From: a virus | Lineage: Duplodnaviria; Heunggongvirae; Uroviricota; Caudoviricetes | IMG/VR virus record: IMGVR_UViG_2700989544_000010 | Reading direction: 5' to 3' (one strand) | DNA: 17,037 bases | Shown here: piece by piece, positions 398 to 16,603 of the stretch | How the letters are laid out: each line of letters starts with the position of its first letter | How positions within the stretch are numbered: position 1 is the stretch's first letter | The notes under the pieces: model-generated | What the model was told of the DNA's origin: nothing | What the model saw: only the letters and a program-made list of their open reading frames with translations | The model's database searches: none | Position numbers and translations under genes: made by a program

Positions 398-925
398 ATG
401 AAATGTAAAATCATTGCTGCCATTGCCATGCTGACAGCAGCATCATGCGGATACGCAGCAGAACAGGAAGTCCCAATGAACCTTGTCAGTGCTGACGGAA
501 AAGAAGTCAGCATTGGAAAAATAACCATTCAGGAGACCCCCTACGGTCTGCTGTTCACACCAGCCCTTCACTCTCTGTCTGAAGGCATTCATGGTTTTCA
601 TGTGCACGAAAAAGGAAATTGCGCCCCGGCACTAAAAGACGGAAAACCGGTCGCAGCATTATCGGCTGGCGGTCACTTTGACCCGAAAAACACCGGCAAA
701 CATCTTGGCCCCTGGTCTCCGGATGGACACCTGGGCGACCTCCCTGCGCTGTTCGTGACGCATGACGGAAAAGCGAACTACCCGGTCCTGGCCCCGAGAC
801 TGAACTCATTAAAAGAGATTAAAGGGCGTTCTCTCATGCTTCATGCTGGCGGTGATAACCATCATGACCATCCGGAGCCCCTGGGCGGTGGTGGTGCGAG
901 AATGGCCTGCGGCATCATTCAATAA
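398..925 (+). CDS. sodC: Periplasmic Cu,Zn superoxide dismutase (phage-borne SodC)
   Basis: ATG at 398 is in frame with track ORF 101..925, with GAGGG about 5 nt upstream. N-terminus [20 protein letters not shown] looks like a signal peptide. Conserved Cu/Zn-SOD blocks are present: [39 protein letters not shown] and C-terminal [12 protein letters not shown]. The part of the track ORF upstream of 398 has no SOD similarity. Confidence 0.9.
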
Positions 926-2447: not shown

Positions 2448-3147
2448 TTACTGCGAAAGTTTATTGATGGAAAGGAAACCGCCAAAATTGACCGCCATGC
2501 CGCGCATCTCACACCCGCGCATGCATTTACTGCATCTGTCCTTCCGGATATCCGTGGTGGGTTTATCGAACTCATCCGCCACAGCCCCGCCCGTGTAACC
2601 ACACTCATCAGAGCGGTAGGTCCACATACAGGTGTTCGCCAGCATGATACGACCGGGAAACAGCGCTCCGTCCGTCTCGGTCGGTGTGGCCAGCACAAAC
2701 GAGGCCGTCATGGCTGTCAGCTGCGACATCTGCTCCACCACCCAGCGGTCGCTCAGCTCCTGCTCCGGGTCCGCTTCCGGATTGCCCGCCACAAAATTCA
2801 CCGCATCCAGAAAACGGGCATACACCCGGCGGCGGACCACCGTGGCCCCCCACCAGGCTCTGCAGGTCCTCCGCCATCCCGGTGACCAGACCAAACAGAT
2901 TGGACACCGTCAGCGACGGTCTGGCACTGCTGCCCTTCCCGTTCATCTCAAAGCCACTGCCGTCAATCGGGTATGCCTGATATTGCCGCCCCTGCCAGGT
3001 GACCGCCTCCCCTTTTTCATTCAGCTCATTGCAGAAAAAATACCGCTCACCACCCTGTACCGTCAGGTCGATTTCCCAGAGTACCACCCGCGGTGACTGC
3101 TCTGATTTAACCGACTCGTTCAGACTTTCTTCGTGAATATCCTGCAT
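2448..3147 (-). pseudogene. L: Tail tip protein L homolog, disrupted by a frameshift near 2843..2852
   Basis: The N-terminal 101 codons (MQDIHEESLNE...MAEDLQSLVGG) are in the frame of track ORF 2608..3147. The remainder (ATVVRRRVYARFLDAVNFV...GGFLSINKLSQ) is in the frame of track ORF 2448..2894. The two halves together recapitulate lambda gpL. The switch occurs at a G6/C6 homopolymer (plus-strand CCCCCC at about 2846..2851). Confidence 0.8.
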
Positions 3148-3476
3148 CAGTTCACCACCTGCTTAAACTCGGCACTGAATTCAACCCGCAGCATGCGAAC
3201 CCGTGATGACCAGGCGGCACAGGTCACCTTTATCTGCCGCTAGGCATAAGGCGGTGTCCACAGAAACGCCTTCCAGCCACCGTGCTCTGCCAGGAATGCC
3301 TCCAGATGTCGGGCCTCCTCCCGGGTCACGGAAAGCGTCACACGGTATGTTTTCAGGTCAGCATTCAGCCCCGCCGCCATACGCTGCGAATACCCGTCAC
3401 CAAAACGCACTTCACGCACCGATGGCTGCGAGTTCACCTCCATATCCGGCTTCACTTTCCAGCGAAATGTTTTCAT
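3147..3476 (-). pseudogene. M: Tail protein M homolog interrupted by an in-frame TAG (amber) codon at 3242..3240
   Basis: Track ORF 3240..3476 gives MKTFRWKVKPDMEV...FLWTPPYA then TAG. Reading on in the same frame gives RQIKVTCAAWSSRVRMLRVEFSAEFKQVVN, ending at TGA 3149..3147, which overlaps the L start ATG. Both halves match lambda gpM, and the TAG sits where lambda has Trp in my recollection. Confidence 0.8.
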
Positions 3477-6028
3477 CGCCTGCCTCCGGAAAAGACGCCG
3501 CCATCACGCATCTGCGCCTGAATCTCATCCTGCGCCCCCTTGCGGGCCATGTCATACACCGCCTTCATCAGCTGCGGCCCCGCCTGTCCGTTGGTGCCGT
3601 CGTTCTGAATCACCACGTGATTGTTCTGATTAAAATTAATGCCTTCCGTCCGCCGCATCTGCGCCGGACTTCCGGCACCGCCGACATAACCGCCATCCGC
3701 ATACCCCCGCATCAGACGGTACAGGTTGCCGACACCAATCCGGCTGGTTGCCTCCTTCGTGAAGACAAATTCACCACGGTGAACAATCCCCGCTGGCTCA
3801 TATTTGTCGCCGGTTCCCGTAAATCCTCCGGTTGCAAAATGGAATTTCGCCGCAGCGGCCTGAATGGCTGTACCGCCTGACGCGGATGCGCCGCCACCAA
3901 CAGCCCCGCCAATGGCACTACCGATACTCCCGACTATCCCCACCATCGCCTGCTTCAGAAAAATCTCTGTCAGCATGGAGAGCACAGAACGGGTGAAACC
4001 ACGCCAGTTCTGTTCGCTGCCGGTCAGCATCGCTGCCATATTCTGTGCAATACCGTCAAAGGTCTGCGTGGCCACGCTTTTAACCTGCGAAAAACTGTCC
4101 GTCGCACTTTCTGCCCACTCGCCCCAGCCGGACTTCAGACCGGCCATCCAGCTTCCACGAAGCTGCTCCTCCGCAGACCAGGTGTTCTTCAGTGCAGATG
4201 TGGCCTTCGCCAGCGCATCCGGATTATCACCGTACACGTCACGAAGGCGCTGCTCTTCCGACTCCCGCTGCGCCTGACGGTCGGTGAGGCCGCGGGCTTT
4301 TGCGCTGATGGCTGCCTGCTTCGCGCTCTGCTGCTGTTCAAACCGCGCCGCCTGCTGTGCCAGCTCATTCAGCCGTTTCTGGTGTTCAACCTTGTCGCCA
4401 AGCTCAGCCAGCTGGCGTTTGTACTCCAGCGTCTCTTTCTCATGGGCCAGCAGGGATTTTTCCTGCTCAGATAACTGGCGTTTCGTGGCAGCCTCTTTCA
4501 GGACCGCATACTGATTTTCCGCTTTCCATAAATCGCGACGCTGCTGGCTGATTTTCTCATTCGCACCGCTGTGTTTTTCCAGCGTCCGGAGCTCGGTTTC
4601 AAGCGCCAGCAGGGCTGCATGCGCCCGGTCTTCCTGGCGCTCACCGGCAGACACCTTCACAGCAGATGGCTTTTTCAGCGTCGACTCATAATCCTTTTTC
4701 GCCGCCGCCATCAGCGTGTTGTAATCCGCCTGCAGGATTTTCCCGTCCTTCAGTGCCTTGTTCAGTTCTTCCTGACGGGCGGTATATTTCTCCAGCGGCG
4801 TCTGCAGCCGTTCGTAAGCTTTCTGCGCCTCTTCGGTATATTTCAGCCGTGACGCTTCAGTATCGCTCTGCTGCTGCGCATTTTTGTCCTGTTGACTCTG
4901 CTGTTCAGCCTTCTTTCTCGCGGCTTCAAGCGCAAGACGGGCCTTTTCACGATCATCCCAGTAACGCGCCCGCGCTTCATCGTTAACAAAATAATCATCC
5001 TTGCGCAGACTCCAGATGTCGTCCGCTTTCTTAAACGCAGCCTCTGCCTTAATCAGCATCTCCTGAGCGGTATCAGGACGACCAATATCCAGCACCGCAT
5101 CCCACATGGATTTGAATGCCCGTGCTGTCCTGTCTGCCCAGGTCTCTAGCGTACCCATGTTCTCTTTCAGGCGGCGGGTCTGGTCATCAAATCCTTTCGT
5201 CGCGGCCTCGTTCGCCGCCTGCAATGCCCCGGCTTCATCGCCGGAACGCTGCAACTGAGCAACATACGCAATCTGCTCCGCCGTCACGTTATGGAACTGG
5301 CGTGCCATCGCTGTCAGCCCTGACGTCGGGTCTGTGGTCAGCTTCCCGAAGGCTTCAGCGACCTTGTCCACCTCCACGCCGGATGCAGAGGAGAAACGCG
5401 CCACACTCTGGCTGATGGATGCAATCTGAGCCTCACCGCTTACTCCCGCCTTAACCAGTGCGCTGAGTGACTCGCTGGTCTGGTTAAACGTCAGCCCTGC
5501 CGCCTGCCCGGCTCTGGACAGGACCAGCATACGATCTGCCGTCAGACCCGACTGATTGCCGGAAAGGACCAGCGTTTTGTTGAAATCGGACAGGGTTGAG
5601 TTGCCCTGATACCAGGCATACGCCAGCGCACCTGTCGCCACCGCCAGCGAGGTGACCCCGACCATCGGCAGGGTGATCGCACCGGCAAGCCCCCTGAACA
5701 TGGGGATCATCCCGCCGAAGGAGTCCTTCACCTGACCGCCCTGTTGCAGCAGGATCAGCCAGGGATTCTGACCACCGGCAAGCTGCGTGGCGATATCCGT
5801 AAACTGTGCGGGCAGGGTTCGCATGGCCGCTTTATACTGCCCGACGGAAATCCCGGCTTTTTGTGCAGCCAGCGCCTGACGACTCAGGTTCTGCTCAACG
5901 ACACCGGCGGTTTTTCTGGCGTCAGTCTCCAGTCCGGAAAAATGACGCCTTACCCGGCTCATCTGCTCATCGAAACGGACCGCATCCAGACTCAGGTCAA
6001 TAACAAGATCACCAACCGGCTGGGACAT
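3473..6028 (-). CDS. H: Tail tape measure protein H homolog
   Basis: Track ORF 3473..6028 (851 aa): MSQPVGDLVIDLSLDAVRFDEQMSRVRRHFSG... is near-collinear with remembered lambda gpH. Its stop overlaps the M start (ATGA). Confidence 0.9.
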   Translation of the reverse strand: MSQPVGDLVIDLSLDAVRFDEQMSRVRRHFSGLETDARKTAGVVEQNLSRQALAAQKAGISVGQYKAAMRTLPAQFTDIATQLAGGQNPWLILLQQGGQVKDSFGGMIPMFRGLAGAITLPMVGVTSLAVATGALAYAWYQGNSTLSDFNKTLVLSGNQSGLTADRMLVLSRAGQAAGLTFNQTSESLSALVKAGVSGEAQIASISQSVARFSSASGVEVDKVAEAFGKLTTDPTSGLTAMARQFHNVTAEQIAYVAQLQRSGDEAGALQAANEAATKGFDDQTRRLKENMGTLETWADRTARAFKSMWDAVLDIGRPDTAQEMLIKAEAAFKKADDIWSLRKDDYFVNDEARARYWDDREKARLALEAARKKAEQQSQQDKNAQQQSDTEASRLKYTEEAQKAYERLQTPLEKYTARQEELNKALKDGKILQADYNTLMAAAKKDYESTLKKPSAVKVSAGERQEDRAHAALLALETELRTLEKHSGANEKISQQRRDLWKAENQYAVLKEAATKRQLSEQEKSLLAHEKETLEYKRQLAELGDKVEHQKRLNELAQQAARFEQQQSAKQAAISAKARGLTDRQAQRESEEQRLRDVYGDNPDALAKATSALKNTWSAEEQLRGSWMAGLKSGWGEWAESATDSFSQVKSVATQTFDGIAQNMAAMLTGSEQNWRGFTRSVLSMLTEIFLKQAMVGIVGSIGSAIGGAVGGGASASGGTAIQAAAAKFHFATGGFTGTGDKYEPAGIVHRGEFVFTKEATSRIGVGNLYRLMRGYADGGYVGGAGSPAQMRRTEGINFNQNNHVVIQNDGTNGQAGPQLMKAVYDMARKGAQDEIQAQMRDGGVFSGGRR

Positions 6029-6880
6029 ATCTCACACCTCCGGAAATCCCCGCTGAAGCCATCATTAATGCGGCATCATCCACCATGACATCCGCCACAT
6101 CCGCAGACGATAAAATCTCACGCCCACCGTCCCCACCAAACCGTACGCCTCCGGCAAGTCCTGCCGCTTTCTGCATCAGCATTTTTTCCTCATCCGGCAT
6201 CTCCGTCTGCGCTTCCTCACGCCGGGGGGCAAGCAGACTGAAATCAGAGGGATGCATATCCGGATCGCAAAAAAACAGGCTGAGTACGGCGTACGTCAGC
6301 CCGGAAAAATGCATATCCAGTTGGGTATCGAGAAAATAATGCGTACGGTAAAAATGTCGCCAGTCGGCATATTCGGTGGATGTCATCCCGGCAAGCATGG
6401 CGCGCCAGTCAGGCCTCCCCATCTCACGCGCCAGTCTGAGGGCAAAATTCAGCTCGCCGTCGAAGACTTTCCCGCAGAAAAATCATCATCAGTCAGCGCG
6501 TTATTTTTCGCCACTTCGGTGCTGTCAGTATCCGCATGAACAGCCCCGCTCATCCCGGACAGACACAACACCACATCTTCCGCCCGGGCAATGGCATCCG
6601 CAGGCCAGGTGGTGAGCACCTCCTGTTCGATCTGCATCACAGCCTCATTCATTGACGGTGATGCCGTTTTCTGCGGATGGTTATGCCACAGGGACATCGC
6701 CACCAGAAACGCGCCGGTTCTGACGAGATCTTCCACGCTTACCTGCAGGTTGCCGCTGGATTCTGCCTGTTCTGCACGCCGTTTCAGGAGGGCAAGATGC
6801 TCAATACGCTGCAGCGCAGACAATTCGGAAAGCGTGACGGACACACCGTTATATTCAAATTGTTCTGTTTTCAGAAACAT
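6009..6880 (-). CDS. G-T: Tail assembly chaperone G-T fusion made by programmed -1 ribosomal frameshift at G GGA AAG (6473..6467)
   Basis: The slippery heptamer GGGAAAG lies on the minus strand at 6473..6467 within the last codons of G. The -1 frame then reads GKVFDGELNFALRLAREMGRPDWRAMLAGMTSTEYADW..., joining track ORF 6009..6422, which matches lambda gpT. The frame arithmetic is consistent (G frame to T frame is -1). Confidence 0.75.
6449..6880 (-). CDS. G: Tail assembly chaperone G homolog
   Basis: Track ORF 6449..6880 (143 aa): MFLKTEQFEYNGVSVTLSELSALQRIEHLALLKRRAEQAES... matches lambda gpG and ends ...FSAGKSSTAS. Confidence 0.85.
   Translation of the reverse strand: MFLKTEQFEYNGVSVTLSELSALQRIEHLALLKRRAEQAESSGNLQVSVEDLVRTGAFLVAMSLWHNHPQKTASPSMNEAVMQIEQEVLTTWPADAIARAEDVVLCLSGMSGAVHADTDSTEVAKNNALTDDDFSAGKSSTAS
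6467..6473 (-). promoter_or_regulatory. Programmed -1 frameshift slippery sequence G GGA AAG
   Basis: Exact heptamer in the G reading frame (gcG GGA AAG), the same sequence and context as the lambda G-T frameshift site. Confidence 0.75.
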
Positions 6881-6893
6881 GTATTACCTCCGT

Positions 6894-7646
6894 TTACCCT
6901 GCAGCGCCCGCTTCAGTAACGGTGACTTCAGCCACTGCGGCGAACTGACCATTTCCGCTCACCACAGGGATCTGCACCTTACCTGTCGCCACGCCGTTTA
7001 CCGTAATTGTCATATCTTTCACACTAATGGTGGCTTTCGACGGATCGGCGGAAACCGCTCTGAACGTCTTGTCTGTTGCACTTTCCGGCTCAAAAGAAAC
7101 CGTCAGGGTGGTTGTTTTCCCTTTTGCCACCGTACCGGATGTCGGCGTCACCTTAATCGCACTGACCGGCGTAATTTTGCTGCGTTCTTCCGCTACAGAA
7201 GGTTTACCCACGTTAGTGACTTTCACCGTGCGGGTGATCACTTCTTTCGCCGTCACGGCCTTACCGATACTGCTGACCCAGCCACGAAACACATCCACCG
7301 TGCCATTCGGAAAACGGATTTTATAGGCCCGGACATCGCCGCTTTCAAACCAGCCTATAAGCCCTTTCTGGCCTTCCTCTCCCGGTTTCCAGGCCAGCGT
7401 AAAACTGGTATCACCTGCAGATTTCTGCCCCTGCCCGGTCGCGGTCCAGTCCGCGTCTTCATCATCCAGGTAGTTATCATCGTAGGATTCTGCCGTCATC
7501 TCGCCCGGCGTCAGATCCTTCACCTTAGCCAGTCGCTGCCAGTCATCGTCTGACAACGGGTTTGCATAAGCGTCACCCTGACCGTTGTAAACCCACAGAG
7601 TGGTACCGGCACCTTTTACCGGCTCAAGGGGATTTGGTGTTGCCAT
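6894..7646 (-). CDS. V: Major tail tube protein V homolog with C-terminal Ig-like region
   Basis: Track ORF 6894..7646 (250 aa): [50 protein letters not shown]... matches lambda gpV. The C-terminal about 80 aa is Thr/Val/Ser-rich, Ig-like. Confidence 0.9.
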
Positions 7647-7653
7647 ATCGTCC

Positions 7654-8049
7654 TCACATCTCGTATGTAATGGAATAAGTCAGATCTGCAGAACTCCATA
7701 ACGCCATATCGTCATCACGACGATACTCATAGCCCTGCGTAACCATCGTGGTAATCAGTCCTGCCAGTGCCGGGATCGCGGTCATCGCCGGGTAAATCCG
7801 GCTTTCCATCCACTGATCAAGCTCTGAATCCGGTACCTGTGCCGGTAAAAACACCTCAATATGCAGCGTGGCCCGCCAGGTATCTGCATCCAGCTCTTCA
7901 CCGGTATACTCTGCATCCGTCAGATAAACCGCGATCGCAGGAAAATCCTCTTCGTCAAAAACAACGGGGCGACCATCAAACAGCGTCGCCCCGTGTTCAT
8001 GCTGCTCGAGTGCATCCAGCACTGCGGCACGAATGTCAGTGTGTTTCAT
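7654..8049 (-). CDS. U: Tail terminator protein U homolog
   Basis: Track ORF 7654..8049 (131 aa): [43 protein letters not shown]... has the same length and sequence pattern as lambda gpU. Confidence 0.85.
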
Positions 8050-8579
8050 CGTTTTATTGCAATCCTCAGTTGTTGTTTCAGCGCGGATGCCAGTTCTTTA
8101 GGCAGGCGTTCACGCCGGATACGGTCAACATTCTCATCAAATGCCTGTTTCAGTGGGGCCGCCATCGGGATTTTCACCACATCAATGGGGTAACGGTTTT
8201 TCCCGGCCACACGCTGCATGACATGCCAGCGACCATTTTTTAATCGCTGAATAAATGCCCGCTGATACCGATGCTGACCGGCTTTAAGTATGCTGTCCGG
8301 ACGACGCCCCGGCATCCTGATCCCCAGCTTAATCACAGGGAGATCACCGCGGTTAACGATAATTCTGGCATTCGGATTTCTGACCGTCGCCCGTTTCAGT
8401 CTGGACCGTTCCTTAACCAGTTTCCGGCGAACCTTTGTCTCCCGGGCAACCTGTGATGAAGACTGATTAATCGCCGTTGTGGCCACGCGGTTAATGGCCA
8501 TTGCTGAAGCCGCCGGAATGGCGTTTTTACGAACCCGACTCAGATTATCAATCGCCTGCTCAAGCCCTTTTATCGCCAT
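8046..8579 (-). CDS. Z: Tail completion protein Z homolog
   Basis: Track ORF 8046..8579 (177 aa): MAIKGLEQAIDNLSRVRKNAIPAASAMAINRVATTAINQSSSQVARETKVRRKL... with C-terminal NGRWHVMQRVAGKNRYPIDVVKIPMAAPL, matching lambda gpZ at both ends. It is about 15 aa shorter than lambda Z as I recall it. Confidence 0.8.
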   Translation of the reverse strand: MAIKGLEQAIDNLSRVRKNAIPAASAMAINRVATTAINQSSSQVARETKVRRKLVKERSRLKRATVRNPNARIIVNRGDLPVIKLGIRMPGRRPDSILKAGQHRYQRAFIQRLKNGRWHVMQRVAGKNRYPIDVVKIPMAAPLKQAFDENVDRIRRERLPKELASALKQQLRIAIKR

Positions 8580-8594
8580 AATTTCACCCTGCGT

Positions 8595-8948
8595 TTATCG
8601 TCGCCGGTTAACGGCGGGTGGTTTCCCACGGTTGAGCCAGAGATAACAGCTGCCCCCGTCATCCGGAGAAACACGATCCACCCAGAACGTCTCACCATTA
8701 ATGGTCAGCGTGTCACCACGCCGCACAGCACGAACCGTATCCGTCCGCACAAATAATGACGGGCTGCTTCCTTCAATACGGACCCCGCCACCGGCAAACC
8801 CCAGCGACTCCGGATCGTCAAAAACCCCCTGAACTTCGCTGCCACACTGTGCCCCCGAGGTGAACTGCGCACAGAGCCCCATCACTTCAACAATCGTGCT
8901 GTCCACCCCGGCGAGGGCAGCATCAAAGGCATTCTGAAAATCACGCAT
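8595..8948 (-). CDS. FII: Head-tail joining protein FII homolog
   Basis: Track ORF 8595..8948 (117 aa): ...GVFDDPESLGFAGGGVRIEGSSPSLFVRTDTVRAVRRGDTLTINGETFWVDRVSPDDGGSCYLWLNRGKPPAVNRRR, very close to lambda gpFII. Confidence 0.9.
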   Translation of the reverse strand: MRDFQNAFDAALAGVDSTIVEVMGLCAQFTSGAQCGSEVQGVFDDPESLGFAGGGVRIEGSSPSLFVRTDTVRAVRRGDTLTINGETFWVDRVSPDDGGSCYLWLNRGKPPAVNRRR

Positions 8949-9324
8949 GCTCAGCCGTTCCGTGCTGTATCATGGCTGTCGCCAGTGGTGATGGCACCAG
9001 AACACGCATGCCCCGGTACGTCAGTTCAACGGGACGGCCTGTCTCCGGGCAATACCCCATCACATGCAGGCATTTCCGCACACGGACCGCTTTAACATCA
9101 TCCGTAGCATCAGTGTTGTGCAACTGCTCACCATCGTCTGTGTGATTTTGCTCAGGCCCGCTCTCATCACCAGGCATAATGCCCTCCCGGGAAGCAGCAA
9201 GCTCCTCTTCCCACTCAGACACACGTTGCGCAATATCCGCAGCACTCCCCGACATATCCGCCTCGCGCCCCAGCAGGCCAGCCAGTTGACGAAGACGTTT
9301 CTGATTTTCTTCTTTTGTTGCCAT
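8941..9324 (-). CDS. FI: DNA-packaging / head assembly protein FI-like
   Basis: Internal ATG at 9324..9322 of track ORF 8941..9372 (MATKEENQKRLRQLAGLL...) is preceded by GGGGG about 5 nt upstream. The position between E and FII matches lambda FI, but sequence similarity to lambda FI is weak, so the call rests mainly on synteny and size. Confidence 0.6.
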   Translation of the reverse strand: MATKEENQKRLRQLAGLLGREADMSGSAADIAQRVSEWEEELAASREGIMPGDESGPEQNHTDDGEQLHNTDATDDVKAVRVRKCLHVMGYCPETGRPVELTYRGMRVLVPSPLATAMIQHGTAEHA

Positions 9325-9344
9325 ATCAGCCCCCTGTGAAAAAA

Positions 9345-9366
9345 GACACGGGGGCATTTCGCCCCC
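9345..9366 (-). other. Intergenic GC-rich stem-loop between E and FI (minus-strand GGGGGC-GAAAT-GCCCCC, then GUGUC UUUUUU)
   Basis: Inverted repeat 9350..9355 / 9361..9366 immediately 3' of the E stop codon, with a T6 tract 5 nt downstream on the minus strand. Lambda has a hairpin at the equivalent place. Confidence 0.45.
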
Positions 9367-9375
9367 GCTCACGGA

Positions 9376-10404
9376 TTATTTCACCTGCACCACCACAAAC
9401 TCATCCGGATCCGGCAGCACCATCAGCGGTGCGGACTGCGTCATGGTAAATTCACGGGCCGGATCGCCCACGGTCAGCCAGTGTTTCGGGTAACGGGAAG
9501 AAGCCACCACACCTTCGGACAACGCCTGCGCATCCTGAATGGCACCGTAACAACGGATCCCATCTGCAGCCGTATTTCCCAGGACCAGCGTGCCCTCCGG
9601 CAGATAACGTTTTTCGGTACCGTCCTCTGCCACATAAGACGTTTTCGCCACCACAATGGCCAGATCGCCGTAATACCCTTTGAAAGACACCACCGCCCCC
9701 AGGTCTTTCACTGCCGTTTCGAGTTGTGAATTTGAGCCGCGACGGGTATCCAGTTTTTCGCGGAACAGCTTAAAGCCATTCAGCAGACGCCAGACAGTAC
9801 CGTCCATAATGGCGATATTCACAAGACCGCTGGCCTGATCGCAGTAGAGGTCAATATCATGCGTCGGATCAAACGTATCACGGTCCTGCTCAGACCATTT
9901 TTTACCGTCAGCCTGCTCAATGTTATTTCCTTCAGAGCGTCCAAAATCCACCTCAACCGTGTCAAACTGATCCCCTTCCATGGTGTATTTGCCATACAGC
10001 ACGGCATTCACCGCCTGCATTTCTTCCACCTGGACAATGGCATGCTCTTCCTGTTTGAGGTTATCGGTGATGATACGCAGACGACGGTAGGCCGGGTCGT
10101 TCAGTTGAGCCGGATCTTCACCGGGAAGACGCTCAACCGCCTGCTGGTAATTAAATTCGTGTTTCGGCTTGACGTAGCCCGGACGTAACACGCGGGTTTC
10201 ACCACCGCGATGACGCAGCACTTTTCCTTCAACAACCGGGGAGACATAGGCCGCCACCGGCGTTTTTCCGGTAATTTTGTCCAGCATCACCTCTTCGGTA
10301 TGGAAATTCACCGTACGGCGGAAAAACAGCTCCAGAAACAGCGCACGAAATTTCACTTTTTGTTCGGTATAACCGAGTAACTGGCGGGTCGTAAACAATC
10401 CCAT
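9376..10404 (-). CDS. E: Major capsid protein E homolog
   Basis: Track ORF 9376..10404 (342 aa): ...RGGETRVLRPGYVKPKHEFNYQQ...EKLDTRRGSNSQLETAVKDLG...GDPAREFTMTQSAPLMVLPDPDEFVVVQVK, collinear with lambda gpE. AAAGGA RBS lies upstream of the ATG. Confidence 0.9.
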   Translation of the reverse strand: MGLFTTRQLLGYTEQKVKFRALFLELFFRRTVNFHTEEVMLDKITGKTPVAAYVSPVVEGKVLRHRGGETRVLRPGYVKPKHEFNYQQAVERLPGEDPAQLNDPAYRRLRIITDNLKQEEHAIVQVEEMQAVNAVLYGKYTMEGDQFDTVEVDFGRSEGNNIEQADGKKWSEQDRDTFDPTHDIDLYCDQASGLVNIAIMDGTVWRLLNGFKLFREKLDTRRGSNSQLETAVKDLGAVVSFKGYYGDLAIVVAKTSYVAEDGTEKRYLPEGTLVLGNTAADGIRCYGAIQDAQALSEGVVASSRYPKHWLTVGDPAREFTMTQSAPLMVLPDPDEFVVVQVK

Positions 10405-10433
10405 AAATCAGTTCCTTTCATTCAGAAATCAGT

Positions 10434-10453
10434 CAGGCCACCGCGGTGGCCTG
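10434..10453 (-). other. Intergenic perfect palindrome CAGGCCACCGCGGTGGCCTG between D and E
   Basis: 20-nt perfect inverted repeat 8 nt 3' of the D stop codon and about 30 nt 5' of the E start. No adjacent U-tract. Lambda has a hairpin in its D-E spacer. Confidence 0.4.
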
Positions 10454-10461
10454 ATAACGTG

Positions 10462-10809
10462 TTACGGCAGCGCCGCGTGACTCAGGGCACTGCCGGCAAA
10501 GGCATTTGCCTTTTTGTGTTCATCCACACTGTCAGGCCAGCGGATTGCCTCCGTCGCAAAGGTCCCCGACTTGTAATACGTCAGTACCGTCTCTGTGCCT
10601 TCAAGCGGCAGTACCAGTATGCCAACCGCACTACCGGCTTTCTGTCCGTCCCAGACCACCAGTTTCCCGGTAGCTTCATCCAGCATCAGGGGCGTCAGTG
10701 CCGGTGTTGCCGAGGAAATCCCGCTGCTGCCTGTGGCGGTATGAGCCGGATCATTACCGGCAAAAATACGTACTTCCGCACGCTGTTCAGTGATGGTTTT
10801 CGTTACCAT
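10462..10809 (-). CDS. D: Head decoration protein D homolog
   Basis: Track ORF 10462..10809 (115 aa): ...NDPAHTATGSSGISSATPALTPLMLDEATGKLVVWDG...GILVLPLEGTETVLTYYKSGTF..., matching lambda gpD motifs (DPAHTAT, TPLMLD, YKSGTF). Confidence 0.9.
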   Translation of the reverse strand: MVTKTITEQRAEVRIFAGNDPAHTATGSSGISSATPALTPLMLDEATGKLVVWDGQKAGSAVGILVLPLEGTETVLTYYKSGTFATEAIRWPDSVDEHKKANAFAGSALSHAALP

Positions 10810-10845
10810 ATTGTAAAAACCTCCTGTTGATGGTCAGCACTGACT

Positions 10846-11298
10846 TCATGGCATAGCCATGAGCATTTTCACGTCCGCATCACCGTCTGCTGACGTCTGT
10901 GGCACGCCACCCTGTACCGCTGCCGGTGAATGGTTCGCCATGATGCGTTCAAACAGGGCGGTTGTGGATGCAGAGACCGGTTCTGCCTTACCTGATCCCG
11001 CAGCCAGCACAGCCCGGGCGCTCTCCACAGTCATTCCCGGGCAGGCAGCCAGCTGTTCAGCCTGCGCCTCAGCCCCTTTTGCCTCATCCAGTGCCATGAT
11101 CTGATCACGGAGTGAGGGTCCGGCATCCGCCTGCGGTGAAGCAGCCAGGATCGGGCGGGCTTTTTCCACCGTCATCTCCGGCATCGCCGCCAGCGTTGCC
11201 GCCAGTTGTTCACGTCCTTTCGCTTCCTGGCATGTCAGGATCCCCATCACTCGCTGGTTCTCCTGCGCGGCGGCTTCCGTTGCAGTTAATTGCGGCAT
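10846..11298 (-). CDS. Nu3: Putative scaffold protein Nu3-like product from an in-frame internal start within C
   Basis: In-frame ATG at 11298..11296 (MPQLTATEAAAQENQRVMGILTCQEAKGREQ...) is preceded by a strong GAGGAGG Shine-Dalgarno 5-6 nt upstream. This mirrors the nested C/Nu3 arrangement of lambda. Confidence 0.55.
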   Translation of the reverse strand: MPQLTATEAAAQENQRVMGILTCQEAKGREQLAATLAAMPEMTVEKARPILAASPQADAGPSLRDQIMALDEAKGAEAQAEQLAACPGMTVESARAVLAAGSGKAEPVSASTTALFERIMANHSPAAVQGGVPQTSADGDADVKMLMAMP

Positions 11299-12201
11299 AG
11301 TGCCTCCTCTGACATTACTGTTCAGCGCCGTGGCCATCACACTGATGGCATCCGACGCATTGACTAATTCATCCGCCAGCCCGGCATCAATGCCGGACTG
11401 ACCTTCAAAAACGGCGGCCTCTGTTCCCGTGACGGCATCAACAGACAGACCGGTAAACATGGCCACTTTTTCGGCAAACATCCGGCGCGCCGCATCAATG
11501 CGCTGCTGCATGTCCTGGCGAACCTCTGCCGGTAAGGCTTCAAACTGATTGCCATCCACCTTGTGCGCCCCTGAGTAAATCAGCGTGATATCCACACCGG
11601 CCTGCGCCAGATGACCGGCATAGCTGACATGGCTCATCATCACGCCAATGGAGCCGATACGGGATGTCTGGGTAACCAGCCGTCGGGAGCAGGCCGACGC
11701 CAGCAGCATGGCTGCAGAACAGGCCGTGTCATTGCACAGTGCCCAGACCGGCTTCTGCTGACGGAGGCGGTAAATCATGTCAGCGCAGTCAAACGCGCCG
11801 GCGGCCTGCCCGCCCGGACTGTCAATGTCCAGCAGTACGCCCCGCACCTGGCTATCCGCCATTGCCTGCTGAAGACAGGCGACAATGCCGTCATAGCCTG
11901 TCATTCCGGAAAATGGCCGCATACCCCCCAGCCGGTACACCAGCGTGCCGGTCACCGGCAGTACAGCAATACCGTTCACCACCCGGTAAACACGGGCCGG
12001 TCGTTTACCTCCGGCCATGTACTCGTCCGTTTCAGCCAGCATTCCGGGAGCATCAAGCTGTACCTGCTGCTGTGGTACCGAAAGACTTGCTGCCCCCATC
12101 TCGCGCCCGAGCGCGCAAAAGAAAACCCGCGCATAGGCGGGCTCCAGAAGCAGCGGTTCATTGAATGCTGCGGCAATAATGTGTGAAAGATTACGTCTCA
12201 C
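10846..12201 (-). CDS. C: Head maturation protease / scaffold protein C homolog (S49/ClpP-like)
   Basis: Track ORF 10846..12201 (451 aa): MRRNLSHIIAAAFNEPLLLEPAYARVFFCALG...GVLLDIDSPGG...VWALCNDTACSAAMLLASACSRRLVTQTSRIGSIGVMM..., collinear with lambda gpC. Confidence 0.9.
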   Translation of the reverse strand: MRRNLSHIIAAAFNEPLLLEPAYARVFFCALGREMGAASLSVPQQQVQLDAPGMLAETDEYMAGGKRPARVYRVVNGIAVLPVTGTLVYRLGGMRPFSGMTGYDGIVACLQQAMADSQVRGVLLDIDSPGGQAAGAFDCADMIYRLRQQKPVWALCNDTACSAAMLLASACSRRLVTQTSRIGSIGVMMSHVSYAGHLAQAGVDITLIYSGAHKVDGNQFEALPAEVRQDMQQRIDAARRMFAEKVAMFTGLSVDAVTGTEAAVFEGQSGIDAGLADELVNASDAISVMATALNSNVRGGTMPQLTATEAAAQENQRVMGILTCQEAKGREQLAATLAAMPEMTVEKARPILAASPQADAGPSLRDQIMALDEAKGAEAQAEQLAACPGMTVESARAVLAAGSGKAEPVSASTTALFERIMANHSPAAVQGGVPQTSADGDADVKMLMAMP

Positions 12202-13783
12202 GGGGTGTTGTCTCCTCTTCCGGCCTGCGACTCTCCGCTATCTGCTGCTGATACGCCTGCGCTATCCACACCGGACGTGAGAGTCCGGCTTTTTGCCGCT
12301 CTGCAGATTCCCTGACCTGCTGGCGGAAAATGTCCTGATAATCCTCGCCCATCAGCGCCAGCTCTTTCTCATACGTGCTCAGTCCGGCCTCAATGCGCAT
12401 CACCGATTCCTGAACCTCCTTGAGCCCGTCAATGGCCATTCTTCCGGCACCAATCCACTCTGCCCGTGACCAGGCTGATCGCGCCTGATAAAAATCAAAA
12501 CGCGCCCGTGGCGGACGGATAATCCCCCGAAGAAGTGCCTCTTCCAGCCAGCAGGAAAACATCTGCGTGGCCAGCCGGGCCGCAATAAATTTTCGCCGCC
12601 CCATAAAATAGCGCCACGACTCATTGGCAGAGGCCCTGGCACTTGAATAACTGACCTTCGAGTAATCACGGGACAACTGTTCGTAGGAAACGCCAAGACC
12701 GGCGGCGATATACCGCAGCAGCGCCTGTTCAAGCGCCGAAAATCCATTGTCTGAATCCTGCGCAGTCTGTAGTTTCAGATCATCCCCGGGGAAAAGGTGC
12801 GGAATTTTGACACCACCCAGCGTCACGTTATTCGTGTCATACCAGCTGGAGAACTTCTCCAGAATATTAATAAGCGGATTATCCTTCTGCCCCTGCGGCG
12901 CACCGGCGATATATTCAAAGGCCTTTTCGGTATCAAGGTCACTTTCAATCGTCGCTGCATACATGGCTTTCACAATGGCCGACTGAAGCTGTGTTGCCTG
13001 CAGGGAATCGAGCATCTTCAGCCGTTCCATGACGCTGTAAAACTGGTTGGCCCCACGGGTCTGCCCGTCCTCCACCGGCTCGAAAATATGCAGCATGGCC
13101 GGACGCCCGGTGGGAAGTTCACGCGGGATCCGTTCCCATCGTCCACTCCCGAAGCGAGGAAAATCATCCTCACAGATATGGTACGCAACGGCACGGCCAT
13201 ATCGATCGACCTCCACCCCGGCCCGCAGAAAACGGTTCCCCATACCGTGTCCTGGCGTGTCCACCCGTTTCGGACTCACGGCTTTAAAACGCGTACGGAA
13301 TAACTGCGTGGTTTCCGTATCCCAGACCGGCTGCACAAAGATTTCGCCGTTAAACGCATGAACGCCCACACCTTCACGGATAAATTCCGTGAACGTGCGT
13401 TTTCCTTCCACGTCGATCTCGCCAGACATCCCTTCGGCGTATTCCGACCAGGCCGCCTCCACCTCATCGACAAAGCTTTTTGCTGCGGTCTCCCGCATCC
13501 CCAGCCAGCGCCAGTTCGGACGGTAGCTGATAAGAAACATATGCCCGACAATGTGATCCTTATGCAGTGCCACCGCATTGGCCGCTATTCCGTTATTGCG
13601 CACCAGATCATCTGCCCGGGCATTCCCCAGACGCAACGCGGGCAGCAGGGCCGCATCGGCACTCTGCGCCGGTGGCAACCACTCCGCCATTTGCCCGCCA
13701 AATCCTGCACCGCCCCCGTTGTAGCTGAGACTCTCACGAAGCGGAACGCCGTTCACATCAATCAGGACAGGCGTTCGTTTCAT
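12191..13783 (-). CDS. B: Portal protein B homolog
   Basis: Track ORF 12191..13783 (530 aa): MKRTPVLIDVNGVPLRESLSYNGGGAGFGGQ...EPVEDGQTRGANQFYSVMERLKMLD...SALEQALLRYIAAGLGVSYEQLSRDY..., collinear with lambda gpB. Confidence 0.9.
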   Translation of the reverse strand: MKRTPVLIDVNGVPLRESLSYNGGGAGFGGQMAEWLPPAQSADAALLPALRLGNARADDLVRNNGIAANAVALHKDHIVGHMFLISYRPNWRWLGMRETAAKSFVDEVEAAWSEYAEGMSGEIDVEGKRTFTEFIREGVGVHAFNGEIFVQPVWDTETTQLFRTRFKAVSPKRVDTPGHGMGNRFLRAGVEVDRYGRAVAYHICEDDFPRFGSGRWERIPRELPTGRPAMLHIFEPVEDGQTRGANQFYSVMERLKMLDSLQATQLQSAIVKAMYAATIESDLDTEKAFEYIAGAPQGQKDNPLINILEKFSSWYDTNNVTLGGVKIPHLFPGDDLKLQTAQDSDNGFSALEQALLRYIAAGLGVSYEQLSRDYSKVSYSSARASANESWRYFMGRRKFIAARLATQMFSCWLEEALLRGIIRPPRARFDFYQARSAWSRAEWIGAGRMAIDGLKEVQESVMRIEAGLSTYEKELALMGEDYQDIFRQQVRESAERQKAGLSRPVWIAQAYQQQIAESRRPEEETTPRET

Positions 13784-13986
13784 AACCTCACTCCCAGCGG
13801 ACGACGGCGACGCCGGGTTGTCCCCAGTACCGACTCCGCATCATTGATCGCCCGGTTAAGCTCATCCAGAGAAGCCGCCGTATATTCAATTCTGCGACCA
13901 TCTTTCTGGACAGACACCACCCGTTTACCGGTTAATAAATCAAGGCGCGCCTGACGCAGCGCCTGCAGTTCAGCGACTGTAACCAT
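13780..13986 (-). CDS. W: Head-tail joining protein W homolog
   Basis: Track ORF 13780..13986 (68 aa): MVTVAELQALRQARLDLLTGKRVVSVQKDGRRIEYTAASLDEL..., same length and motif (TGKRV..VQKDGRR) as lambda gpW. Its start overlaps the 3' end of A. Confidence 0.85.
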   Translation of the reverse strand: MVTVAELQALRQARLDLLTGKRVVSVQKDGRRIEYTAASLDELNRAINDAESVLGTTRRRRRPLGVRL

Positions 13987-15898
13987 TCACTCCTCCGGAC
14001 AGCTTCGCTGCCAGTTCTTTCAGGGTTGGCCGGGTCGTCTCTTCTTCCCGGGATTTTGCCAGTACAGCCAGATCAAGCTGCCAGCGTTGCACGGACACAC
14101 GTAATGCCGCGTAGGCATACACCAGGCAGTCCAGCGCTTCGTTACGCCGCTTTTTGTTATCCCACAGCAGACGCATCTTTCCTTTTTCCCACTTCTCCAC
14201 CAGCTCTTCCGCCACCAGTTGCTGCGCCTCTGTCTGCGAAAAAATCTCCGGATCATCAGGAAAACGGATGGCATACGACGTGGCTTCATCCGCAGGCGAG
14301 GGATCGGCTTTCATACGGGCATAGAGAATTTCTTTTGCGGTGTCCGTTCCCACTTCACACAGATACACGCCCCGCTGATTGCGGGTTTTTGGCATGGTGA
14401 TCACCGGCTTGCCATAGACAGATGCGCCTTTTACCGGCAGCCCCCGGAAAACACCGTGTTTTTTTGATCTCTGATAAACAATTTCACCATCGATCCCCCC
14501 GGTGTCCCAGCAGACACGGGAAATAGTCATTTCGGTGCCATCCGCATGGCGGTATTTTTTGTTGATCGCCGCATCCACACGTAACAGCGTCTCTTCCTCA
14601 TCAGGACGCCCCATAATGATGATTTTATCCACCAGAAAGGCTTCCTCTCCCGGAGCCCATCCCCAGACATACATCTCAAAACGGTTTCGCTGCGAGTCAA
14701 TGCCCGCCGTCAGATAAACCACCCGGGCAGGCACCGCCGCCGTGTAACGCACCACCTTATCCATCAGTACCTAGTGATCGAGTTTTTCGCCCACGGCCTC
14801 TTCCCAGGTCTCGCCCAGCGTGGTGTTCACAAAGGTTTTCAGGCCGTTGGGATCTTTCAGTGCATCCAGCCAGTCATAGACAATCTGTACCCAGGTGGTG
14901 AACGGACTGTACGCCGTCCAGATATGGAACGTGATGGAGCGCGGCGGCGGAATTTCATCACCCCGGGCGCTGAAAAACGTCAGACCGTCACGGGTCCACA
15001 TGCCCGTGTTTTCACAGATCCACCGCCCGTTGCTCTGGTCCAGTTCAGACTGATGGATCACGCAGCCATGATGTTCACAGAGGTAGAAAACACTTTCAGG
15101 GCTGTCCTTCTCCCATTTAAGCCCAAAAGGCGTGGACTCATCGCCAAATTTCAGATACTGCTCCTCCCCACAGTGCGGGCAGGGCACATAAAAACGCATA
15201 AAATGCGCCGACTCGTTAGCGGCTTTTTCGATCTGGCAGGTGCCTTTGATTTTAGGCGTCGAGCCGCGAATGGATTTTGGCCACACCGACCCCTCAATAC
15301 GCTTATCCCCCAGCAGGGTTGGCGAGCCCTCTTTTTCGACATCCGGCTCGAACGAGGAAAGTTCGTCATAGCAGACCACGTCCACGGATTTTTCACGGTA
15401 GTTTTTGGCGGCAGCGCCGCCCAGGCACCAGAAACCGACGCCCGATGAAAAGCGTTTCAGCGTGAGAGTATTGTCACGATGTTTACGACCCAGCCATGGG
15501 GAAAGGTCTTTCAGGCATGGCACGTTCCGAATCGTCGCCTCCACGTGAGACTTCATAAAATCTTCAGCGGCAGAATCCGTGGGCTGAAAAAGCAGACTGT
15601 TTCGGGATTTATGCTCAATAAAATACCCGACCACCCCCAGCAACATCTTTGTATAGCCAACACGGGCAGATTTAATCAGATTAACAGTGCGGATCTGATC
15701 ATTCCCCATGCTGTTCATGATGGCGATCTGGAATGGCAGCGTTTTCCATTCGCCCTCACCATATGAAGATTCTTTAGGCAGATAATAATTTTGATCAGCC
15801 CATTCAACTGGCGTCACCGGCAATGCCCTTATCAGGGGCTGTAATGCAGTTGTGACAGCGCTCATCATATTATTCAGTTGTTGCTCTGATATATTCAT
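13970..15898 (-). pseudogene. A: Terminase large subunit A homolog, interrupted by an in-frame TAG codon at 14773..14771
   Basis: The N-terminal part is in track ORF 14771..15955 from internal ATG 15898 (MNISEQQLNN..., Walker-A-like KSARVGYTK) and ends ...TTLGETWEEAVGEKLDH-TAG. The same frame continues VLMDKVVRYTAAVPARVVYLTAGIDSQ... as track ORF 13970..14764. The combined length matches lambda gpA, and the TAG replaces a sense codon (Glu in lambda as I recall). Confidence 0.85.
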
Positions 15899-16376
15899 CA
15901 AGTAAATCCGGTAATTTATCCCCTGCCCGCGCACACTGATTTGCCCCCTTAGCAATAAGGGTTTTCAGATGGTCAAGATGGCGCGGTGTTAAATCAGGAA
16001 ACTGTCGCTGCATGGATAAAGGGATGGAATCAAGCGTACTGGATAACGCCATTGCCAGCTTACTGAGGGCAAAAATACAGAATCCGGTGTCAATAAGCTT
16101 ACCTTCGGTTACCTGATTTTTAAGTTTTTGAGCTACGGCCTGTTCTTCTGTCAGTTCAGCTCTGGCCCGAAGCAGCCTTTCCTCCAGATCGCCCTCGTCA
16201 TCAGGTATTCTCTGATTGTGTTGTCGCCGCTCGCGATCTATCTCCAGTACAGTTTTAACGTCATAAAAAACTTCCCTCCCACGACGCTCAACAGGAGGAA
16301 CGCCCCATTTATCAAATGCCTGAACAGATATACCGATGGAGGAGGCCATATCACTTTTATTCAATAAAAAGGCCAT
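15870..16376 (-). CDS. Nu1: Terminase small subunit Nu1-like (C-terminal half lambda-like, N-terminal DNA-binding part divergent)
   Basis: Track ORF 15870..16481. The likely start is the internal ATG at 16376..16374 (MAFLLNKSDMASSIGISVQAFDKWG...), preceded by GGAGAGGAG. The C-terminal FCIFALSKLAMALSSTLDSIPLSMQRQFPDLTPRHLDHLK...LPDLLDEYI matches lambda gpNu1. The 3' end overlaps A by about 29 nt. Confidence 0.8.
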   Translation of the reverse strand: MAFLLNKSDMASSIGISVQAFDKWGVPPVERRGREVFYDVKTVLEIDRERRQHNQRIPDDEGDLEERLLRARAELTEEQAVAQKLKNQVTEGKLIDTGFCIFALSKLAMALSSTLDSIPLSMQRQFPDLTPRHLDHLKTLIAKGANQCARAGDKLPDLLDEYIRATTE

Positions 16377-16591
16377 CTCCTCTCCATAAGCCATCGATAA
16401 AAAGCGATACAACAACCATGTGTTTTTACAAAACCATTTGATATCATTGACATTTTTCGCATTGACGACATCAAAACACATCGTAAGGTTGTTGTATTTA
16501 TTTTATTTTCACCTTACTTATCAATTAGATATGCCAAACAATTAAACAACAACTCCCCCTCAAAAAATCTCATAAATAGCGAAAACCCGCG
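16377..16591 (-). promoter_or_regulatory. Candidate cosB region (terminase small-subunit binding sites), not lambda-like in sequence
   Basis: AT-rich spacer between cosN and the Nu1 start, the same position and similar length as lambda cosB. It diverges from lambda after the first about 22 nt inside cosN and contains ACAACAAC motifs in both orientations (about 16488..16496 and 16547..16554). Confidence 0.4.
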
Positions 16592-16603
16592 AGGTCGCCG
16601 CCC
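16592..16603 (-). other. cosN cohesive-end site (12-nt GGGCGGCGACCT on minus strand)
   Basis: Plus-strand AGGTCGCCGCCC at 16592..16603 is the reverse complement of the lambda cohesive end. Identity with lambda extends on the Nu1 side (CGCGGGTTTTCGCTATTTATGA) and on the other side (CGTAACCTGTCGGATCGCCGGAAAGGACCCGC, matching the lambda right end). Confidence 0.8.

What the first reader, a model, noticed from the sequence alone, without database searches (positions are those of the whole stretch)
3237..3245. In-frame amber codon in tail gene M
M reads through 78 codons, hits TAG at 3242..3240, then continues in the same frame for 30 more lambda-like codons to a TGA that overlaps the L start in the classic ATGA arrangement. 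This is the second TAG nonsense lesion in the module, and both are amber. Two events are too few to claim a pattern, but it raises the question of whether this element was propagated in a suppressor background.
Basis: partly seen in the sequence, partly recalled or inferred. Interest (0 to 1): 0.55.

Follow-up and report, generated by a model that had tools for sequence, protein, structure and literature searches.

The report
Amber-stopped tail gene in decaying prophage
A single G-to-A change has turned the tryptophan-79 codon of the lambda-type tail-tip gene M into a stop codon in a decaying E. coli prophage; this is ordinary pseudogene formation, already flagged as "internal stop" in a public genome, and needs no suppressor host to explain it.

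Summary
On the minus strand, M starts at 3476 and hits TAG at 3242..3240 (codon 79). It then continues in frame for 30 lambda-like codons to TGA at 3149..3147. One detail is off: the M/L junction is TGATG, not ATGA.

The closest complete genome (99.6% identical) has TGG at this codon, and lambda gpM has Trp79. The window is the whole contig LKDA01000069.1 of the draft E. coli assembly GCA_001440575.1.

The same TAG is in at least five other assemblies. One is the complete genome E105, where RefSeq already marks M "internal stop". It is therefore not a read error.

The module carries two more lesions:
- CAG>TAG at codon 376 of the terminase large subunit.
- A +1 frameshift in L, which no amber suppressor could rescue.

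Each amber also occurs alone in a different prophage background.

TAG makes up 47-69% of all possible single-base nonsense changes in these genes, so two ambers are expected by chance (P 0.22-0.48).

No tRNA gene lies in the window or the four related prophage loci scanned, and E105 lacks supE and supF.

Verdict: routine decay of a chromosomally inherited, cargo-carrying lambdoid prophage. Interest is low.

The parts
3147..3476 (-). Tail-tip gene M (lambda gpM homologue, PF05939), now a pseudogene. It has 109 codon positions plus TGA.
   Evidence: The orthologue in L001 is an intact 330-nt CDS.
3240..3242 (-). In-frame amber codon TAG at codon 79. It derives from TGG (Trp79) by a G>A transition at window base 3241.
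   Evidence: window T versus L001 C on the + strand; lambda W79; the same base is found in L002, L003, L004, L005, L011 and L012.
3243..3476 (-). The 78-codon truncated M reading frame. It covers only positions 1-76 of the 108-position Pfam profile.
3147..3239 (-). Untranslated remnant of M: 30 in-frame lambda-like codons plus TGA. The TGA overlaps the L start as TGATG.
2448..3147 (-). Tail gene L, inactivated by a +1 frameshift. The length is 700 nt instead of 699, and the frame ends after 179 codons at 2608.
   Evidence: L is an intact 699-nt CDS in L001 and E105.
2846..2851 (.). Homopolymer run C6 (G6 on the coding strand), the site of the +1 slip in L. E105 has C5 here and L001 has CACCC.
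   Evidence: The run is shared by L002, L003 and L004.
13970..15898 (-). Terminase large subunit gene (gpA homologue), split into a 375-aa and a 264-aa reading frame.
14771..14773 (-). Second amber codon, TAG at codon 376 of the terminase large subunit. It derives from CAG (Gln) by a C>T transition.
   Evidence: window A versus L001 G on the + strand at 14773; shared by L013-L021; also present in O111:NM 2010C-3053, where it is annotated 'internal stop'.

Best explanation
The TAG is a loss-of-function point mutation (TGG>TAG, Trp79>stop) in the gpM-type tail-tip gene of a lambdoid prophage. The prophage is inherited vertically as part of an E. coli chromosome and is no longer under selection to make virions.

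Translation ends after 78 residues. That removes the last 31 residues of a 109-residue single-domain protein which, in lambda, is an essential part of the tail tip.

The same module also has a nonsense-split terminase and a frameshifted L, so the element cannot package DNA or build tails on its own. It persists because the host replicates it, and probably because it carries cargo: sodC in the window, and a TccP2/EspF-like effector next to the tail fibres in relatives.

Shown: the lesion, its ancestral state, its presence in independent assemblies, and the co-occurring lesions. Inferred: loss of M function, vertical persistence, and spread of the allele between prophage backgrounds by homologous recombination.
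For: Base change and ancestral state:
- between window 2894 and 11194 the only difference from the closest complete genome (OkiPb01713, L001) is base 3241. L001 has TGG there and an intact 330-nt M.
- lambda gpM aligns end to end, with W79 opposite the TAG.
- the truncated product keeps only 76 of the 108 Pfam profile positions.

The allele is real:
- the identical TAG is in GCA_003015285.1 (a 4.4-Mb contig), GCA_000194215.2, GCA_005393035.1 and GCA_001607265.1.
- it is also in the complete genome E105, where RefSeq annotates 'phage tail protein, internal stop'.

Other lesions and their distribution:
- CAG>TAG in the terminase, and a C5>C6 frameshift in L shared by three other assemblies.
- each amber occurs alone in a different mosaic. 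M-amber alone is in E105. A-amber alone is in O111:NM 2010C-3053.
- each amber sits inside a locally identical tract of about 370-460 bp, within more diverged flanks.

Chance and context:
- both lesions are G:C>A:T transitions, and TAG is the commonest nonsense outcome (47-69%).
- none of the 40 matching phage records carries the exact TAG version of this 71-mer.
- (PMC2669165, Table 1): most lambdoid prophages of O157 Sakai are scored defective in morphogenesis or packaging functions, so this state is the norm.
Against: - In the 14-kb near-identical tract from Nu1 to M, the only derived point changes of the window lineage relative to L001 are the two nonsense codons. That is more than the 3.6% (1626 of 45639 possible changes) expected for random substitutions (counts). 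The numbers are tiny and the comparison is post hoc. Import of pre-existing null alleles by recombination explains it.
- No functional test of M was possible.
- Low-level natural read-through of UAG cannot be excluded from sequence alone.
Confidence: 0.9

Rival explanations
1. Suppressor background. The prophage was or is propagated in a host carrying an amber suppressor tRNA, so the TAGs in M and A are read as sense and both genes remain functional.
For: Both nonsense codons in the module are amber. None of the 19 natural stops of the module in L001 is TAG, so suppression would not extend any native product. In E105 the M amber is the only lesion annotated in the morphogenesis genes of that module.
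Against: - Two ambers are expected by chance (P 0.22-0.48).
- L carries a frameshift that is not suppressible.
- No tRNA gene lies in the window or the four related prophage loci scanned. Only Met/Arg/Arg tRNAs are in the O111 relative.
- E105 has CTG anticodons in both glnV/glnX copies.
- The supF allele is absent from all 5426 complete genomes.
- The 60 listed records out of 155 with the exact supE allele are, by strain name and genome size (4.50-4.83 Mb), almost all K-12 laboratory derivatives.
Confidence: 0.03
2. Sequencing or assembly error. The true base is G (TGG), and the TAG is an artefact of a short-read draft assembly.
For: The window is a 17-kb contig of a draft assembly. It also shows a probable repeat collapse of 150 bp in the C/Nu3 gene that the other assemblies do not share.
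Against: The same base is found in at least five other assemblies from different projects. These include a 4.4-Mb contig and a finished genome.
Confidence: 0.01
3. Programmed feature. Either M naturally ends at codon 78 in this phage group, or the TAG is decoded by recoding or read-through, as in stop-codon-reassigned phages.
For: The 30 codons after the TAG are still perfectly lambda-like and in frame.
Against: - 420 of 421 complete genomes with this 71-mer, and all 40 matching phage records, lack the exact TAG version.
- The Pfam family profile runs through to position 108.
- Only 2 in-frame TAGs occur in 20 reading frames, and they replace two different amino acids, W and Q.
- No phage-borne suppressor tRNA was found.
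- Preservation of the downstream frame is explained by the youth of the lesion: the flanking 8 kb is identical to an intact relative.
Confidence: 0.01
4. Selected null allele. The nonsense alleles are favoured rather than merely tolerated. Possible reasons are that they stop virion production while keeping cargo genes, or that the 78-residue gpM fragment interferes with tail-tip assembly of other lambdoid phages. The alleles would spread between co-resident prophages by gene conversion.
For: - Disabling lesions are over-represented among the very few differences from the nearest relative.
- Each amber is found in a second, diverged prophage background inside a short identical tract.
- Several assemblies break contigs exactly at the polymorphic base. 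That suggests TAG and TGG copies coexist in one genome.
Against: - Lesions in tail and terminase genes do not protect the induced cell from lysis, so a direct host benefit is unclear.
- The sample is tiny and was examined post hoc.
- The relative L001 has its own, different lesions (frameshifts in J and the tail fibre), as expected from unselected decay.
- The TAG allele is rare: 1 of 421 complete genomes carrying this M 71-mer.
Confidence: 0.05

Closest known systems
Defective lambdoid prophages of EHEC/EPEC E. coli (for example the Sp prophages of O157:H7 Sakai; Asadulghani et al. 2009, PMC2669165)
   Same: They share the lambda-type Nu1-A-W-B-C-D-E...H-M-L-K-I-J module, cargo genes, IS elements, and point or indel lesions in morphogenesis and packaging genes. 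They are inherited with the chromosome and can sometimes be mobilised with help from co-resident prophages.
   Different: Nothing of kind. This is simply another prophage lineage, with its own set of lesions: M W79amber, A Q376amber, and a +1 frameshift in L.
RefSeq pseudogene J0O73_RS09060 in E. coli E105 (NZ_CP071375.1), 'phage tail protein, internal stop'
   Same: The TAG is at the same codon, inside a 461-bp tract identical to the window.
   Different: The surrounding prophage is only about 94-97% identical. Its terminase and L are intact.
Laboratory sus/amber mutants of phage lambda in genes A and M (classical conditional-lethal mutants grown on supE/supF hosts; from established phage genetics, not tested here)
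   Same: They have TAG codons created by G:C>A:T transitions in essential head and tail genes, with an otherwise intact downstream reading frame.
   Different: Those mutants were produced by mutagenesis and kept on suppressor strains. Here the alleles are in natural isolates, sit next to a non-suppressible frameshift, and no suppressor was found where it could be checked.
Stop-codon-reassigned phages (TAG read as an amino acid, with phage-borne suppressor tRNAs; established knowledge)
   Same: In-frame TAG in late or structural genes.
   Different: Those genomes carry many in-frame TAGs aligned with one amino acid, plus a suppressor tRNA. Here there are two TAGs, replacing W and Q, with no tRNA, and sense codons in all close relatives.

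Membership tests
Lambda gpM / Phage_min_tail (PF05939) tail-tip protein gene | Sequence match to the family profile over its full length | tested here: met
   The read-through product scores 132.9 bits (cut-off 39) over profile positions 1-108/108. It matches lambda gpM, PDB 8iyk, at E 6.5e-58 over 1-109.
Lambda gpM / Phage_min_tail (PF05939) tail-tip protein gene | Position between the tape-measure gene H and gene L in a lambda-type tail module | tested here: met
   Gene order is H (3473-6028), M, L, K, I, then sodC, then J.
Lambda gpM / Phage_min_tail (PF05939) tail-tip protein gene | Uninterrupted reading frame encoding the whole domain | tested here: not met
   TAG at codon 79 means only 76 of the 108 profile positions can be translated.
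Pseudogene by nonsense mutation | Close orthologues have a sense codon at the position, and the flanks are otherwise near-identical | tested here: met
   L001 has TGG, and this is the only difference across 8.3 kb. 420 of 421 complete genomes lack the exact TAG version of the 71-mer.
Pseudogene by nonsense mutation | The downstream sequence stays homologous in the same frame | tested here: met
   The 30 codons after the TAG align with lambda gpM residues 80-109.
Pseudogene by nonsense mutation | The lesion is reproducible in independent sequence determinations | tested here: met
   It is present in five further assemblies, including one finished genome.
Pseudogene by nonsense mutation | Loss of the protein's function | not testable with these tools
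   Inferred from the loss of 31 of 109 residues of a single-domain protein. It needs a plating or complementation assay.
Suppressor-dependent (sus/amber) phage | All inactivating lesions are suppressible amber codons | tested here: not met
   L has a +1 frameshift in a C6 run.
Suppressor-dependent (sus/amber) phage | The host or the element carries an amber suppressor tRNA (anticodon CUA) | tested here: inconclusive
   None is in the window or the four related prophage loci scanned, and the O111 relative has only Met/Arg/Arg tRNAs. E105 lacks supE and supF. serU, leuX and the window's own host genome were not scanned.
Suppressor-dependent (sus/amber) phage | More amber codons than chance among nonsense lesions | tested here: not met
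   P(both TAG) = 0.22-0.48.
Stop-codon-reassigned (TAG-recoded) phage | Many in-frame TAGs across genes, aligned with one amino acid in relatives | tested here: not met
   There are two TAGs in 20 reading frames, opposite W and Q.
Stop-codon-reassigned (TAG-recoded) phage | A phage-encoded suppressor tRNA | tested here: not met
   No tRNA gene is in the window or in L001, L002, L003 or L013.

The most novel reading that the evidence does not exclude
The two amber null alleles are not just debris. They circulate as discrete alleles among co-resident lambdoid prophages by gene conversion, and are favoured by selection. Possible reasons are that virion-incompetent prophages keep their cargo in the lineage, or that the 78-residue gpM fragment poisons tail-tip assembly of competing lambdoid phages.
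Probability: 0.05. Interest if true: 0.45.

Novelty: already known. Interest (0 to 1): 0.1.

Why it matters
It matters little beyond annotation. The finding marks this prophage as unable to form tails or package DNA on its own. That is useful when judging whether its cargo (sodC here, a TccP2-like effector next door in relatives) can still move horizontally. Movement would need helper prophages, as shown for O157 Sakai.

The one mildly interesting point is population-genetic. The same null alleles appear in different prophage mosaics. This fits the view of the E. coli lambdoid prophage pool as a recombining population in which broken alleles also travel.

Tried and rejected
- **Read error.** Rejected because the allele is in independent assemblies.
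- **Natural short M.** Rejected by Pfam coverage, lambda gpM, and the E. coli and phage surveys.
- **'Two ambers are a pattern'.** Rejected by enumerating all 1626 possible nonsense changes in the intact relative.
- **Suppressor tRNA in the element.** None found.
- **Suppressor in a host.** Only E105 could be checked. glnV/glnX are wild type. supF is absent from every complete genome. The supE survey listed only 60 of 155 exact records, so E105 had to be checked directly. serU, leuX and trpT were not examined.
- **Literature search for the assembly accessions** (LKDA, PVMF, AEZJ). It found nothing, so the serotype of the source strain stays unknown.
- **Paper search on amber suppressors in natural isolates**. 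It gave nothing usable.
- **Excess of nonsense among lineage-specific SNPs as evidence of selection.** I set this aside because n=2, the test is post hoc, and both alleles exist in other backgrounds and can have been imported by recombination.
- **Not attempted.** No structure prediction, large protein search or RNA search was run, because none could change the verdict.

Full report
**1. What is in the sequence**

The window carries a complete lambda-type head and tail module on the minus strand. It runs from Nu1 and A at the right end to I and the first 88 codons of J at the left end. sodC lies on the plus strand between I and J.

Gene M starts with ATG at 3476, inside the ATGA overlap with the stop of the tape-measure gene H. 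It runs for 78 sense codons and meets TAG at 3242..3240. It then continues in the same frame for 30 codons to TGA at 3149..3147.

The finding's coordinates and counts are therefore correct. The only slip is the M/L junction, which is TGATG (one shared base), not ATGA.

With Trp put back at codon 79, the protein matches Pfam PF05939 over the whole profile (1-108 of 108, 132.9 bits). The 78-residue product covers only profile positions 1-76. It also aligns end to end with lambda tail tip protein M of PDB 8iyk (E 6.5e-58), with lambda Trp79 opposite the TAG.

**2. Where the window comes from and what the ancestral codon was**

The window is identical to the whole 17037-bp contig LKDA01000069.1 of the draft E. 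coli assembly GCA_001440575.1.

The closest complete genome is strain OkiPb01713 (NZ_AP042682, locus L001), 99.6% identical. All its head and tail genes from Nu1 to I are annotated intact.

A base-by-base comparison shows that between window 2894 and 11194, which is 8.3 kb, the only difference is base 3241. It is T in the window and C in L001 on the plus strand, so TAG against TGG on the coding strand.

Among 5426 complete E. coli genomes, 421 match the 71-mer centred on the codon, and only one has the exact TAG version. None of the 40 matching phage records has it.

**3. Is it a sequencing error?**

No. A look-up of the exact 78-residue product found a true TAG, with the gene called with its stop codon, in four assemblies:
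- GCA_003015285.1, on a 4.4-Mb contig. This locus is 99.97% identical to the window over the 11.2-kb aligned block, ignoring the 150-bp indel in C/Nu3.
- GCA_000194215.2.
- GCA_005393035.1.
- GCA_001607265.1.

The finished genome of strain E105 (NZ_CP071375) has it too, and RefSeq already annotates that gene as 'phage tail protein, internal stop'.

Many other index entries are contigs that simply end inside codon 79. One of these ends in ..CCTA and four end in ..CCTG. This most likely reflects assembly forks at the polymorphic base in genomes that hold both alleles in different prophages. That is an inference.

**4. The other lesions**

Translating all 20 reading frames of the window shows exactly two internal nonsense codons in native frame, and both are TAG. 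One is M codon 79 and the other is terminase large subunit codon 376, at 14773..14771. The second derives from CAG. It is shared by at least nine further contigs, from six NCBI assemblies and three Logan-assembled sequencing runs.

Gene L is 700 nt long instead of 699. A C6 run at 2846..2851 replaces the C5 run seen in E105, so the frame ends after 179 codons. The same slip is in three other assemblies.

In GCA_003015285.1 an IS3-family element sits upstream of Nu1. The window's right end (16919-17037) runs into it and is identical to IS1203 of an O111 strain.

The module is thus broken in at least three essential genes, and one of those lesions cannot be suppressed.

**5. Are two ambers a pattern?**

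I enumerated every single-base change that creates a stop codon in the 19 intact genes of L001. There are 1626 such changes among 45639 possible ones.

- TAG accounts for 46.5% of them under a uniform model.
- It accounts for 51-56% with transition-biased weights.
- It accounts for 69% if only G:C>A:T transitions are allowed, because CAG and TGG are common codons.

Both lesions are G:C>A:T transitions. The probability that two random nonsense lesions are both TAG is 0.22 to 0.48, so there is no pattern to explain.

**6. The suppressor idea**

- No tRNA gene lies in the window or in the four related prophage loci scanned.
- The related O111 prophage carries only Met(CAT), Arg(TCG) and Arg(TCT) tRNAs.
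- The supF allele of tRNA-Tyr is absent from all 5426 complete genomes.
- The exact supE allele of tRNA-Gln is in 155 records. The 60 listed are, by strain name and genome size (4.50-4.83 Mb), almost all K-12 laboratory derivatives.
- In E105, the one finished genome with the M amber, both glnV/glnX copies have the wild-type CTG anticodon.

The window's own host genome could not be read with these tools, so a suppressor there is not excluded. Nothing calls for one, however, and the L frameshift would remain lethal to the phage anyway.

**7. History of the alleles**

The M amber occurs alone in E105, in a prophage only about 94-97% identical to the window. It sits inside a 461-bp tract that is identical to the window.

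The terminase amber occurs alone in O111:NM strain 2010C-3053, where it is again annotated 'internal stop'. That background is 98.3% identical, and the amber sits inside a 368-bp identical tract. M and L are intact there.

The window lineage combines both ambers with the L frameshift. The simplest reading is that these are older null alleles moving between related prophages by homologous recombination. Such recombination is well documented for this prophage pool (established knowledge; for the Sakai prophages).

This also defuses one oddity. In the 14-kb near-identical tract from Nu1 to M, the only derived point changes of the window lineage relative to L001 are the two nonsense codons. That would be unlikely for fresh random substitutions, of which about 3.6% create stops. 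Note that L001 has its own, different lesions: frameshifts in J and in the tail fibre gene.

**8. Mechanism and verdict**

The TAG ends translation of M after 78 residues. The product lacks 31 of the 109 residues of a small single-domain protein that in lambda is a structural part of the tail tip (for the structure entries; essentiality is from classical lambda genetics). Loss of function is therefore inferred, not shown.

With terminase and L also broken, the prophage cannot make virions by itself. It is kept because the chromosome replicates it. At best it could be mobilised by helper prophages, as reported for defective prophages of O157 Sakai (PMC2669165).

This is ordinary prophage decay. 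The very same lesion is already labelled as a pseudogene in a public record. Interest is low. The only loose thread worth a look is whether such null alleles spread, or are favoured, within the prophage pool.

Noticed in passing
window 14771-14773 (gene A, 13970-15898, minus strand): Second amber: CAG>TAG at codon 376 of the terminase large subunit. It splits the gene into 375-aa and 264-aa frames. It is shared by at least nine other contigs. It also occurs alone in the finished genome O111:NM 2010C-3053, annotated 'internal stop'.
   Followed up: yes
window 2846-2851 (gene L, 2448-3147, minus strand): A +1 frameshift in a C6 homopolymer run (C5 in E105, CACCC in L001). L ends after 179 codons. 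The same slip is in GCA_003015285.1, GCA_000194215.2 and GCA_005393035.1.
   Followed up: yes
window about 11207-11226 (gene C/Nu3, 10846-12201, minus strand): A 150-bp in-frame deletion relative to every related locus (451 aa instead of 501). It removes one of two roughly 50-residue tandem repeats. Among the loci compared it is seen only in this contig, so it may be a short-read repeat collapse rather than a real allele.
   Followed up: partly
window 16919-17037: The right end of the contig runs into an IS3-family element. It is 100% identical to IS1203 in O111:NM 2010C-3053. In GCA_003015285.1 the element sits between the lysis genes and Nu1. This explains why the draft contig ends here.
   Followed up: partly
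window 398-925 (+ strand): An intact sodC (Cu/Zn superoxide dismutase, 175 aa) sits as cargo between tail genes I and J, on the opposite strand. One third-position difference from L001 lies at 634.
   Followed up: partly
window 6467-6473 (minus strand): GGGAAAG lies just upstream of the stop of G. This is the lambda-type slippery site for the G/GT -1 frameshift. The motif count in the window is not above chance, but the position is the expected one.
   Followed up: partly
L005-L009 (contig ends): Several pathogen-surveillance assemblies break a contig exactly at the polymorphic base of M codon 79. One ends in ..CCTA and four end in ..CCTG. This suggests genomes that carry both the TAG and the TGG copy in different prophages.
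   Followed up: partly
window 3241-16594 compared with L001: In the 14-kb near-identical tract from Nu1 to M, the only derived point changes of the window lineage are the two nonsense codons. The other two singletons (15633, 16594) are not new changes on the window lineage. At both, the window shares its base with E105. At 15633 the alternative base is also in L006, so that site looks like an older polymorphism.
   Followed up: partly
L001 2789-6264 and 744-2058: The closest intact-looking relative (OkiPb01713) has its own lesions. J and the tail-fibre N-terminal gene are annotated as frameshifted.
   Followed up: no
E. coli complete genomes: The exact supE (glnV CUA) allele is present in 155 complete-genome records. 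In the listed ones, no feature is annotated under the match, so suppressor tRNA genes appear to go unannotated in RefSeq.
   Followed up: no
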